A stretch of DNA of 64,000 nucleotides from Escherichia coli (GTDB lineage: Bacteria > Pseudomonadota > Gammaproteobacteria > Enterobacterales > Enterobacteriaceae), in the NCBI RefSeq assembly GCF_030013595.1, contig NZ_CP122768.1; one strand, 5' to 3'. The stretch's first letter is position 1; the number at the start of each line of letters is the position of its first letter. The position numbers are program-made. Of this stretch, positions 24,001 to 26,226 are shown piece after piece.

Positions 24001-26226
24001 CTGGCACGGGCGATCCTCGATAAAGCAGGTGATATGCAGCTACCGCAGGTCAACGGTTTCCGCACATTGCGCGGGCTGGGTGTGAGCGGTGAAGCTGAAG
24101 GTCATGCGGTATTGCTGGGCAATCAGGCGCTGTTAAATGACCAGCAAGTTGATACTAAAGCGATTGAGGCAGATATTTCAGCTCAGGCATCGCAAGGGGC
24201 AACGCCTGTGCTGCTGGCGGTTGACGGGAAAGCGGTGGCCTTGCTGGCAGTACGCGATCCGTTGCGTAGTGATAGCGTGGCGGCGCTGCAACGTCTGCAT
24301 AAAGCGGGATATCGTCTGGTGATGTTGACCGGGGATAACCCAACCACCGCCAATGCGATCGCCAAAGAAGCAGGGATTGATGAGGTGATCGCCGGGGTGC
24401 TGCCGGACGGTAAAGCCGAAGCGATCAAACGTCTGCAGAGTGAAGGACGTCAGGTGGCAATGGTGGGCGACGGCATTAACGACGCGCCAGCGCTGGCTCA
24501 GGCGGATGTCGGAATTGCGATGGGTGGCGGCAGTGATGTTGCCATTGAAACCGCAGCGATTACCCTGATGCGCCATAGCCTGATGGGTGTTGCGGATGCG
24601 CTCGCGATTTCCCGCGCAACGCTGCGCAATATGAAGCAGAACCTGCTCGGTGCGTTTATCTACAACAGTATCGGTATTCCGGTCGCCGCCGGTATTTTGT
24701 GGCCGTTCACTGGAACACTGCTTAACCCGGTGGTTGCCGGAGCGGCAATGGCGCTCTCGTCGATTACCGTAGTGAGTAACGCTAACCGGTTGCTGCGGTT
24801 TAAACCGAAAGAGTGATTGGTATTTACTTAATGCGTTTGTGAGATCCAGTTCTTGTTGCGCTCCTTTTATGAGTCATGCCATATAAAGTGACTGGCGCAG
24901 GGAGCGCGCAGGGGGCGGCCAATCGCCGCCGCCCCCTGCACCCCCGGGCTCTGGCGAACAAAATCGCCGCTGCGCGGTACCCTCAGCTTATCCCTTGCGG
25001 CTACCGGGTCGGGCGCGAGGTAACATCCCTGTAAAACGCGCCCTCAGCCCACATCCATGTGGGCTGCCCCGGCCTTCAGGGAACGCCTCGGCGATTTTGA
25101 CGCCACCAACACCGGTGCAGTCTTTCGTTTCAAAGCAAAAACAATTTTTCGATCATATTTAAGCTACCACTGAACAAGCCTCATAACTCCATTTGCGCCA
25201 TCCCTCCCCGCGCGCTAGCATGATATTTCACAAAGGGAGGTCGTATGGATCTGTTGTACCGGGTAAAAACGCTTTGGGCCGCGCTGCGCGGTAATCATTA
25301 CACCTGGCCTGCCATCGATATCACCCTCCCCGGCAATCGCCATTTTCATCTGATTGGCAGTATTCATATGGGCAGCCACGATATGGCTCCCCTGCCCACC
25401 CGTTTGCTCAAAAAGCTCAAAAACGCCGATGCGCTGATCGTCGAGGCGGATGTTTCCACCAGCGATACGCCTTTTGCTAATTTGCCTGCCTGCGAGGCGC
25501 TGGAAGAGCGCATTAGCGAGGAGCAACTCCAAAACCTGCAGCACATTAGCCAGGAGATGGGCATTTCTACCTCACTCTTTTCTACCCAACCGCTGTGGCA
25601 AATCGCGATGGTTCTTCAGGCGACGCAGGCACAAAAACTGGGGCTGCGGGCAGAATACGGTATCGATTACCAGCTATTGCAGGCGGCGAAGCAACAACAT
25701 AAACCCGTGATTGAACTGGAAGGGGCTGAAAACCAGATTGCCATGTTGCTCCAGCTCCCTGACAACGGACTGGCACTGCTGGACGATACGCTGACCCACT
25801 GGCACACCAATGCACGGTTGCTGCAACAAATGATGAGCTGGTGGCTGAATGCGCCGCCGCAAAATAATGAAATAACGCTGCCTAATACGTTCAGTCAGTC
25901 GCTGTACGATGTGCTGATGCATCAGCGAAATCTCGCCTGGCGGGACAAATTATGCGCCATGCCGCCGGGGCGCTATGTGGTCGCAGTCGGTGCACTACAC
26001 CTGTATGGAGAAGGGAATTTGCCGCAGATGTTGCGTTAAAAAAATGGCCAATATCGCTATTGGCCCGTCAAAGAGGAATTTCATATTTTTATTATTATGC
26101 CGTCACTTTAAGCGACGGTGTAACTCGATTGTCGCTCAATCTCACCATCCTGCCAATACTCTTAGGCAAGATGACTCTTTTTTTGGACCGCCATCAGGCG
26201 TATGCTTGCTTCGTTTTTTTGTTTAA

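What the first reader, a model, noticed from the sequence alone, without database searches (positions are those of the whole stretch)
26040..26121. ChiX sRNA lies in the ybaP-ybaK gap, invisible to ORF-based annotation
The minus strand matches the known ChiX (MicM) sequence with its terminator. It would be missed by protein-only annotation; the ybaP stop codon directly abuts the ChiX terminator U-tract.
Basis: partly seen in the sequence, partly recalled or inferred. Interest (0 to 1): 0.3.

Follow-up and report, generated by a model that had tools for sequence, protein, structure and literature searches.

The report
Known ChiX small RNA, correctly spotted
The stretch is the well-studied E. 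coli regulatory RNA ChiX, which silences a chitin-sugar pore until the sugar appears. It sits where it does in every E. coli, so the call is right but ordinary.

Summary
The finding is correct and already known. Window 26038..26121 (minus strand) is the 84-nt sRNA ChiX (also called SroB, MicM or RybC). It matches Rfam RF00368 over the full model at 81.1 bits, against a cut-off of 44. It is 83/84 identical to the curated K-12 chiX gene and lies antisense between ybaP and ybaK, as in K-12 and in 37 other Enterobacterales loci examined.

All functional parts are intact:
- a sigma-70-like promoter;
- a 5' hairpin;
- a single-stranded linker with four AAN Hfq motifs;
- a seed exactly complementary to 12 nt over the chiP Shine-Dalgarno sequence and to 12 nt in the chbB-chbC decoy;
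- a terminator hairpin followed by U7.

There are two small corrections. The 3' end is 26038, not 26040. The ybaP TAA stop does not merely abut the U-tract but shares its two A's with it, and this overlap is conserved in most genera checked.

The only difference from K-12 is A37U (window 26085). This minority allele occurs in 382 of 5422 E. coli genomes with a match and in E. albertii. It preserves the AAN motif and adds one predicted base pair to the decoy duplex.

RefSeq/PGAP records with identical DNA carry no ncRNA feature here, so the "invisible to annotation" remark holds in practice. Interest is low.

The parts
26038..26121 (-). ChiX (SroB/MicM/RybC) sRNA gene, 84 nt. The transcription start is the A at 26121 and the 3' end is at 26038.
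   Evidence: Rfam RF00368 at 81.1 bits against a cut-off of 44, full model. 83/84 identical to K-12 b4585.
26151..26156 (-). Promoter -35-like hexamer TTGGCA.
   Evidence: Consensus scan: 17-nt spacer, 9 of 12 matches. Identical to K-12.
26128..26133 (-). Promoter -10-like hexamer GACAAT. It ends 6 nt upstream of the start at 26121.
   Evidence: Identical to K-12.
26100..26118 (-). 5' hairpin (RNA nt 4-22): 8-bp stem with a 3-nt loop.
   Evidence: Minimum-free-energy and centroid fold. A 5' hairpin with unrelated stem sequences appears in about 32 of 34 homologs. Between E. coli and Citrobacter, U7-A19 becomes A-U, a compensatory change.
26085..26096 (-). Four consecutive AAN triplets (AAU AAU AAA AAU, RNA nt 26-37) in the single-stranded linker. 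This is the presumed Hfq distal-face site.
   Evidence: Sequence. ChiX is a class II sRNA with four AAN motifs (PMC7987339).
26085..26085 (-). The single difference from K-12: RNA nt 37 is U here and A in K-12.
   Evidence: The exact allele occurs in 382 of 5422 E. coli genomes with a match and in E. albertii.
26064..26077 (-). Seed (RNA nt 45-58, UUCCUCUUUGACGGG region). Nt 45-56 pair with the chiP Shine-Dalgarno region, and nt 47-58 pair with the chbB-chbC spacer.
   Evidence: Exact 12-nt complements to the K-12 targets. Duplex energies of -21.2 and -29.2 kcal/mol, against shuffle means of -11.4 and -9.9.
26046..26065 (-). Rho-independent terminator hairpin GGCCAAUAGCGAUAUUGGCC.
   Evidence: The helix is kept in 34 of 34 homologs, and two pairs show compensatory changes.
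26038..26044 (-). U7 tail, the Hfq proximal-face site. Its last two U's are complementary to the AA of the ybaP TAA stop.
   Evidence: Sequence. Same geometry in K-12. Conserved in about 27 of 31 Enterobacterales loci. A 7-nt U tail for ChiX is noted in bioRxiv 10.1101/2021.04.25.441314.
25245..26039 (+). ybaP (TraB/PrgY/GumN family), convergent with chiX. Its stop codon TAA lies at 26037..26039.
   Evidence: Pfam PF01963 at 147 bits. PGAP name.
26242..26721 (+). ybaK (Cys-tRNA(Pro)/Cys-tRNA(Cys) deacylase), divergent from the chiX promoter.
   Evidence: Pfam PF04073 at 81 bits. PGAP name.

Best explanation
This is the chromosomal chiX gene of an E. coli strain. It is transcribed from its own sigma-70 promoter on the minus strand and ends at an intrinsic terminator whose U-tract overlaps the ybaP stop codon by 2 nt. 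The 84-nt RNA binds Hfq through its U7 tail (proximal face) and its four AAN triplets (distal face). Its single-stranded seed (nt 45-58) pairs with the Shine-Dalgarno region of the chiP (chitoporin) mRNA. That pairing blocks translation and promotes Rho-dependent termination within chiPQ. When chitosugars induce the chb operon, the chbB-chbC spacer pairs with the same seed, and more extensively. This titrates ChiX and triggers its decay, which de-represses chiP. The chiP 5'-UTR fragment ChiZ is a second sponge for ChiX. Shown here: the identity, the anatomy, the complementarity to both targets, the synteny and the conservation. Inferred from the literature on K-12 and Salmonella: Hfq binding, repression, and decoy-induced decay in this particular strain.
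For: The Rfam sroB match scores 81.1 bits against a cut-off of 44. The sequence is 83/84 identical to curated K-12 chiX, and the promoter, seed and both hairpins are identical. The fold shows the seed unpaired, with z = -3.8. Promoter-like and terminator-like sites lie in the expected places. There are exact 12-nt complements to the chiP Shine-Dalgarno region and to the chbB-chbC spacer. Using only the single-stranded region, the duplex energies are -21.2 and -29.2 kcal/mol, against shuffled-target means of -11.4 (sd 2.6) and -9.9 (sd 2.5). The chiP leader is present in 5424 of 5426 E. coli genomes. The chb spacer is at least 99% identical in 5381 of the 5404 genomes that have it. chiX itself is present in 5422 of 5426 genomes. 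In all 37 homolog loci chiX lies between ybaP and ybaK on the opposite strand, within the order copA-ybaP-chiX-ybaK-ushA. All 11 distant homologs tested pass Rfam's threshold at 68-89 bits. The seed 16-mer scan independently recovered reverse-complement sites on the ribosome-binding sites of OprD-family (ChiP-type) porin genes in Serratia and Shimwellia. The mechanism is taken from PMC4098024, PMC7815308, PMC7987339 and bioRxiv 10.1101/2021.04.25.441314. The published location between ybaK and ybaP is from PMC3384567.
Against: Nothing contradicts the identification, but there are limits. chiP and the chb operon lie outside the 64-kb window, so pairing was tested against K-12 target sequences rather than this strain's own. 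Expression and Hfq binding cannot be tested computationally. The homologs were retrieved with an exact 16-mer from the seed, so seed invariance in my alignment is by construction; only the Rfam consensus supports it independently. For chiP, a few of the 1000 shuffles reach the observed duplex energy (minimum -24.0), so energy alone is not decisive for that target.
Confidence: 0.97

Rival explanations
1. The hairpin and T-run are only the transcription terminator or 3' UTR of ybaP, perhaps a bidirectional terminator, and there is no independent sRNA gene.
For: The ybaP stop overlaps the element by 2 nt. A RIL-seq pipeline labelled these reads 'ybaP.EST3UTR' before renaming them ChiX (PMC10954441).
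Against: The U-tract follows the hairpin only on the minus strand. On the plus strand the hairpin is followed by CGUCAAAGAGG, which is not U-rich. A promoter-like site sits at the correct distance upstream on the minus strand. The covariance model matches the full 83 positions, including the 5' hairpin and seed that a terminator would not need. K-12 curates it as an ncRNA.
Confidence: 0.01
2. The locus is a decayed or functionally altered chiX allele, because of the A37U substitution and the one-base shorter A-run upstream of the promoter.
For: There is one substitution in the RNA. There is also a 1-nt deletion in an A-run at 26178..26184, about 57-63 nt upstream of the start. The exact RNA allele is the minority form, in 382 of 5422 genomes.
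Against: U37 falls on the 'N' of the fourth AAN triplet, so the Hfq motif count is unchanged. The seed, both hairpins, the -35 and -10 hexamers and the U-tail are identical to K-12. The allele is shared with E. albertii and recurs in hundreds of genomes, which fits a neutral polymorphism. The predicted duplexes are equal or slightly stronger: chiP -21.2 against -21.0, and chb -29.2 against -28.1 kcal/mol.
Confidence: 0.03
3. The RNA is a small-protein mRNA or a dual-function RNA, translated from the AUG at nt 38-40.
For: An AUG at window 26084..26082 opens a frame reading MKFLFDGPIAILAIF....
Against: No Shine-Dalgarno sequence precedes the AUG; it lies in an A/U-only linker. The frame has no stop before the terminator, because the first in-frame stop lies 29 codons downstream, beyond the RNA's 3' end. 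The frame runs through the seed and the terminator stem. No minus-strand ORF of 30 aa or more is listed there.
Confidence: 0.01

Closest known systems
ChiX (b4585; synonyms SroB, MicM, RybC) of E. coli K-12 MG1655; Rfam RF00368
   Same: 83 of 84 nt. The same promoter hexamers, 5' hairpin, AAN linker, seed, terminator and U7 tail. The same position antisense between ybaP and ybaK. The same 2-nt overlap with the ybaP stop codon.
   Different: A37U in the linker. An upstream A-run one base shorter (A7 here, A8 in K-12). A synonymous CGC to CGT change in the last ybaP codon.
ChiX orthologs in Citrobacter, Enterobacter, Kluyvera, Pluralibacter, Shimwellia, Serratia, Rahnella, Hafnia and Rouxiella
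   Same: Synteny, seed, terminator hairpin and U-tract, and an A/U-rich linker. All 11 tested pass Rfam's threshold.
   Different: The stem sequences of the 5' hairpin are unrelated between genera, so structure is kept but sequence is not. In Serratia, Shimwellia and Phytobacter the target sites are 16-17 nt perfect complements, against 12 nt in E. coli.
MgrR, the other well-studied class II Hfq-dependent sRNA
   Same: The same mode of Hfq binding: U-tail on the proximal face and ARN/AAN motifs on the distal face (PMC7987339; PMC6239178, listed).
   Different: Unrelated sequence, targets (eptB, ygdQ) and regulation (PhoPQ-dependent). It is not homologous to ChiX.

Membership tests
ChiX / Rfam RF00368 (sroB) | Covariance-model score at or above the curated gathering score, over the full model | tested here: met
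   81.1 bits against 44, model positions 1-83 of 83, E = 2.8e-10.
ChiX / Rfam RF00368 (sroB) | Sequence identity to the experimentally characterised K-12 chiX gene | tested here: met
   83 of 84 identical. The single mismatch is at nt 37.
ChiX / Rfam RF00368 (sroB) | Genomic position: antisense in the ybaK-ybaP intergenic region | tested here: met
   ORFs and Pfam families. PGAP names. The same arrangement in 37 of 37 homolog loci. Published location (PMC3384567).
ChiX / Rfam RF00368 (sroB) | Single-stranded seed complementary to the chiP Shine-Dalgarno region | tested here: met
   Nt 45-56 are an exact complement of CGUCAAAGAGGA, which ends 7 nt upstream of the K-12 chiP AUG. The seed is unpaired in the minimum-free-energy fold. 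The target was taken from K-12 because chiP is not in the window. The leader is present in 5424 of 5426 E. coli genomes.
ChiX / Rfam RF00368 (sroB) | Complementarity to the chbB-chbC intergenic decoy | tested here: met
   Nt 47-58 are an exact complement of CCCGUCAAAGAG, and a second helix of 8 bp follows. The duplex energy is -29.2 kcal/mol against a shuffle mean of -9.9, sd 2.5 and minimum -21.6. The spacer is at least 99% identical in 5381 of 5404 genomes.
Class II Hfq-dependent sRNA | Rho-independent terminator with a long 3' U-tail, plus internal single-stranded (AAN)n or ARN repeats | tested here: met
   Hairpin plus U7. Four consecutive AAN triplets at nt 26-37. The criterion is taken from PMC7987339.
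Class II Hfq-dependent sRNA | Physical binding to the Hfq proximal and distal faces, and Hfq-dependent stability | not testable with these tools
   Shown for K-12 ChiX in the literature. Inferred here from the near-identical sequence.
ChiX / Rfam RF00368 (sroB) | Expression as a discrete ~84-nt transcript in this strain | not testable with these tools
   Only promoter-like and terminator-like consensus sites are available. No transcript data exist for the window.

The most novel reading that the evidence does not exclude
The minority U37 allele is found in about 7% of complete E. coli genomes and in E. albertii. It lengthens the second helix of the ChiX-chbBC decoy duplex from 7 to 8 bp (about -1 kcal/mol) and could lower the chitosugar level needed to switch ChiX off. 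Separately, the deeply conserved sharing of two nucleotides between the ybaP TAA stop and the ChiX U-tract means every ybaP 3' UTR is antisense to ChiX. Read-through ybaP-ybaK transcripts could therefore act as a cis-antisense sink for ChiX, or be cleaved because of it.
Probability: 0.08. Interest if true: 0.3.

Novelty: already known. Interest (0 to 1): 0.07.

Why it matters
For biology it matters little. ChiX is one of the best-characterised Hfq-dependent sRNAs, and this copy is a normal allele in its normal place. The practical point is about annotation. RefSeq/PGAP records of E. coli, including one 100% identical to the window across a 401-bp query spanning this locus, carry no feature for chiX. 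Its 2-nt overlap with ybaP has also led an interactome pipeline to label its reads as a ybaP 3' UTR (PMC10954441). A genome scan that relies on CDS features will therefore repeatedly rediscover it, and a covariance-model pass removes such findings cheaply.

Tried and rejected
(1) Whole-molecule duplex energies were discarded. The calculation opens ChiX's own hairpins, and shuffled targets reach similar values (chiP -38.8 against a shuffle minimum of -41.9). I recomputed with only the single-stranded nt 23-58.

(2) The MAFFT/RNAalifold consensus recovers only the terminator helix, because the 5' hairpins of different genera do not align by sequence. I relied on per-sequence folds for the 5' hairpin and did not build a custom covariance model.

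(3) The 16-mer scan of genome contigs returned many hits in unrelated phyla. By my arithmetic about 140 chance hits are expected in 298 Gb on two strands. True homologs were separated by blastn with the full ChiX sequence. Seed invariance among these homologs is by construction and is not used as evidence.

(4) The first Pfam call failed on a wrong frame and was repeated.

(5) A dual-function or small-protein reading was rejected: there is no in-frame stop in the transcript and no Shine-Dalgarno sequence.

(6) A bidirectional-terminator reading was rejected: there is no U-tract after the hairpin on the plus strand.

(7) K-12 coordinates 3,726,391.. for the spacer repeat came from a derivative strain whose numbering is shifted, and in NC_000913.3 they fall inside wecH. 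The real K-12 copy lies between aqpZ and lysO.

Full report
OBSERVATION. The plus strand at 26030-26125 reads ...GTTGCGTTAAAAAAATGGCCAATATCGCTATTGGCCCGTCAAAGAGGAATTTCATATTTTTATTATTATGCCGTCACTTTAAGCGACGGTGTAAC. Its reverse complement is an 84-nt sequence, ACACCGUCGCUUAAAGUGACGGCAUAAUAAUAAAAAUAUGAAAUUCCUCUUUGACGGGCCAAUAGCGAUAUUGGCCAUUUUUUU. A scan of the whole window against all 4227 Rfam families at curated thresholds gives four hits. One is RF00368 'sroB' at 26038..26121 on the minus strand: 81.1 bits against a gathering score of 44, E = 2.8e-10, model positions 1-83 of 83. SroB, MicM, RybC and ChiX are names for the same RNA (PMC4098024; PMC3384567).

COMPARISON WITH K-12. The curated MG1655 record annotates ncRNA chiX (b4585) at 507204..507287. 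It lies between ybaK (506603..507082) and ybaP (507286..508080), both on the other strand. Aligning 261 nt of the window's minus strand with K-12 gives 99% mean column identity. Within the RNA there is one difference: nt 37 is U here (window 26085) and A in K-12. Outside the RNA there are three differences. An A-run 57-63 nt upstream of the start is one base shorter. The last ybaP codon carries a synonymous change (CGT here, CGC in K-12). One further substitution lies within the ybaP coding sequence, also outside chiX. The -35-like TTGGCA (26156..26151), the 17-nt spacer, the -10-like GACAAT (26133..26128) and the start A at 26121 are identical to K-12 and were picked out by the consensus scan. 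The 3' end geometry is also identical. ybaP runs 25245..26039 on the plus strand, so its TAA stop (26037..26039) shares two positions with the end of chiX (26038).

ANATOMY. The RNA folds into a 5' hairpin (nt 4-22), an unpaired stretch (nt 23-56), and a terminator hairpin (nt 57-76) followed by A and U7. The minimum-free-energy and centroid structures agree, at -23.9 kcal/mol and z = -3.8, and none of 200 dinucleotide shuffles folds as well. The unpaired stretch contains four consecutive AAN triplets (AAU AAU AAA AAU, nt 26-37). The conserved seed AAAUUCCUCUUUGACGG follows them. The published description of ChiX is a class II Hfq sRNA that uses its U-tail on the proximal face and four AAN motifs on the distal face (PMC7987339), with a seven-nucleotide single-stranded U tail (bioRxiv 10.1101/2021.04.25.441314). 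Every one of these features is present. The A37U change falls on the 'N' of the fourth triplet, so the motif count is unchanged. That reading is my inference.

MECHANISM TEST. chiP and the chb operon are not in the window, so I took them from K-12. ChiX nt 45-56 are an exact complement of CGUCAAAGAGGA, which covers the Shine-Dalgarno sequence and ends 7 nt before the chiP AUG. Nt 47-58 are an exact complement of CCCGUCAAAGAG in the chbB-chbC spacer. With only the single-stranded part of ChiX, the best duplexes are -21.2 kcal/mol for chiP and -29.2 for chb. The corresponding values for 1000 shuffled targets are mean -11.4, sd 2.6, minimum -24.0 for chiP, and mean -9.9, sd 2.5, minimum -21.6 for chb. 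The stronger, bipartite pairing with the decoy fits the published model. In that model ChiX constitutively represses chiP, and the chitobiose-induced chb transcript titrates ChiX and destabilises it (PMC4098024). ChiX pairing also enhances Rho-dependent termination in chiP, and the chiP 5'-UTR fragment ChiZ acts as a second sponge (PMC7815308). The targets are conserved across the species. The chiP leader is found in 5424 of 5426 complete genomes, and the chb spacer is at least 99% identical in 5381 of 5404 genomes. It is therefore very likely, though not shown, that this strain carries both.

The U37 allele adds one A-U pair to the second helix of the decoy duplex, giving -29.2 against -28.1 kcal/mol for K-12 ChiX. 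This is a small effect of unknown significance.

CONSERVATION. chiX is present in 5422 of 5426 complete E. coli genomes, and the exact window allele is in 382 of them. E. albertii also has U37. Of these, 35 species-representative loci match full-length or most of ChiX; with the K-12 (L001) and B1.H1.18 (L002) loci fetched earlier, that makes the 37 homolog loci. The rest are chance hits, which is expected in 298 Gb of sequence. In all 37 loci the RNA lies antisense between ybaP and ybaK, within the order copA-ybaP-chiX-ybaK-ushA, and the genera range from Escherichia to Hafnia, Serratia, Rahnella and Rouxiella. Eleven of the more distant homologs were run through Rfam, and all pass at 68-89 bits over the full model. 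The terminator helix is kept in 34 of 34 sequences, and two of its pairs show compensatory A-U to G-C changes in Rahnella. About 32 of 34 sequences have a 5' hairpin, but the stem sequences differ between genera. One example is a U-A to A-U swap between Escherichia and Citrobacter. Because the homologs were selected with the seed 16-mer, the invariance of the seed in this alignment is by construction and I do not count it as evidence.

The same scan also recovered the reverse complement of the seed directly upstream of the start codons of OprD-family porin genes in Serratia grimesii, Serratia plymuthica and Shimwellia. This is the ChiX target in the same genomes, with 16-17 nt of perfect pairing against 12 nt in E. 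coli. Here the sRNA and its target site are conserved together, which is independent support for the mechanism.

THE STOP-CODON/TERMINATOR OVERLAP. In about 27 of 31 loci that could be parsed, the ybaP stop is TAA and its two A's are the complement of the last two U's of the ChiX tail. Two loci were mis-parsed by my script, but their sequences show the same TTA. The exceptions are Rouxiella, one Pluralibacter MAG and Hafnia, with gaps of 18, 7 and 3 nt. On the plus strand the hairpin is not followed by a U-run, so it is not an obvious terminator for ybaP. Any ybaP 3' UTR must therefore be antisense to ChiX. I found no paper that addresses this. One RIL-seq study had to rename 'ybaP.EST3UTR' as ChiX (PMC10954441).

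ANNOTATION. The RefSeq/PGAP record that is 100% identical to the window over the 401-bp query (window 25900-26300) lists only copA, ybaP, ybaK and ushA there. None of the 50 sampled records lists an ncRNA under the match. Mechanical ORFs of 97 and 83 aa cross the locus on the plus strand and are spurious.

VERDICT. The observation and the interpretation are both correct, apart from a 2-nt coordinate correction. The feature is the known sRNA ChiX in its known place, with a common neutral-looking allele. Novelty: already known. Interest: low.

Noticed in passing
window 24817..25244 (repeat core about 24851..25121): The copA-ybaP spacer holds a ~271-bp GC-rich, strongly structured dispersed repeat. 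Its fold z-score is -5.9 on both strands. The repeat occurs at a median of 4 places per E. coli genome (range 2-8; 22,845 places in 5,425 genomes), and the other copies are 91-95% identical. Only 346 genomes carry it at this locus. A K-12 copy lies between aqpZ and lysO and is unannotated in NC_000913.3. The core aligns over the full TwoAYGGAY model (RF01731), showing two adjacent hairpins with AUGGAU and AGGGAU loops inside a long stem. It scores only 31.5 and 30.6 bits against a cut-off of 43. I could not establish what the element is.
   Followed up: partly
window 24817..25244, compared with K-12 508081..508874: ybaQ (a DNA-binding regulator, b0483), which lies between ybaP and copA in K-12, is absent here. 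The spacer is polymorphic in E. coli: 794 bp with ybaQ in K-12, 540 bp in strain SCPM-O-B-8794, 171 bp in strain B1.H1.18, and 428 bp with the repeat in the window.
   Followed up: partly
L108 about 1302..1318, upstream of the ORF at 1320..2000 (Phytobacter massiliensis): A 17-nt perfect complement to Phytobacter's own ChiX seed covers the ribosome-binding site of a KdgM-family porin gene (PF06178, 199 bits) next to yiiX-metJ-metB-metL. This is not an OprD-type chitoporin. A full-text search for ChiX together with KdgM found no paper. It may be an unreported class of ChiX target.
   Followed up: partly
L089 4593..4608, L099 (minus strand), L072 (minus strand): Serratia grimesii, Serratia plymuthica and Shimwellia carry 16-17 nt perfect ChiX-seed complements on the ribosome-binding site of OprD-family chiP. 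That is longer than the 12 nt in E. coli.
   Followed up: partly
window 26037..26044 and 31 homolog loci: The ybaP TAA stop shares two nucleotides with the ChiX U-tract in about 27 of 31 Enterobacterales loci. No U-run follows the hairpin on the ybaP strand, so ybaP 3' ends must be antisense to ChiX.
   Followed up: yes
window 26178..26184: An A-run 57-63 nt upstream of the chiX start is A7 here and A8 in K-12. It lies in the region where an UP element would be. Its effect is unknown.
   Followed up: no
window 39800..39864 (-): The dnaX programmed -1 frameshift element: Rfam RF00382 at 96.8 bits, essentially identical to the consensus.
   Followed up: no
window 31800..31877 (-): An Rfam naRNA4 (CssrE) match at 72.6 bits against a cut-off of 59.5. 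It has the shape of a REP/BIME-type double hairpin.
   Followed up: no
window 56498..56594 (-): The 4.5S / SRP RNA gene (ffs): Rfam RF00169 at 68.1 bits.
   Followed up: no
window 25952..26245 (+) and 25975..26226 (+): Mechanical ORFs of 97 and 83 aa run across the chiX locus on the opposite strand. A naive ORF caller could report them as hypothetical proteins. PGAP does not call them.
   Followed up: no
E. coli genome collection: Four of 5426 complete E. coli genomes lack any chiX match, and two matches lie on records labelled as plasmids.
   Followed up: no
L113 5733..6225 (Hafnia paralvei): A cspA thermoregulator (RF01766, 236.9 bits) lies between ushA and ybaK in Hafnia. The ushA-ybaK spacer is therefore expanded there compared with E. 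coli.
   Followed up: no
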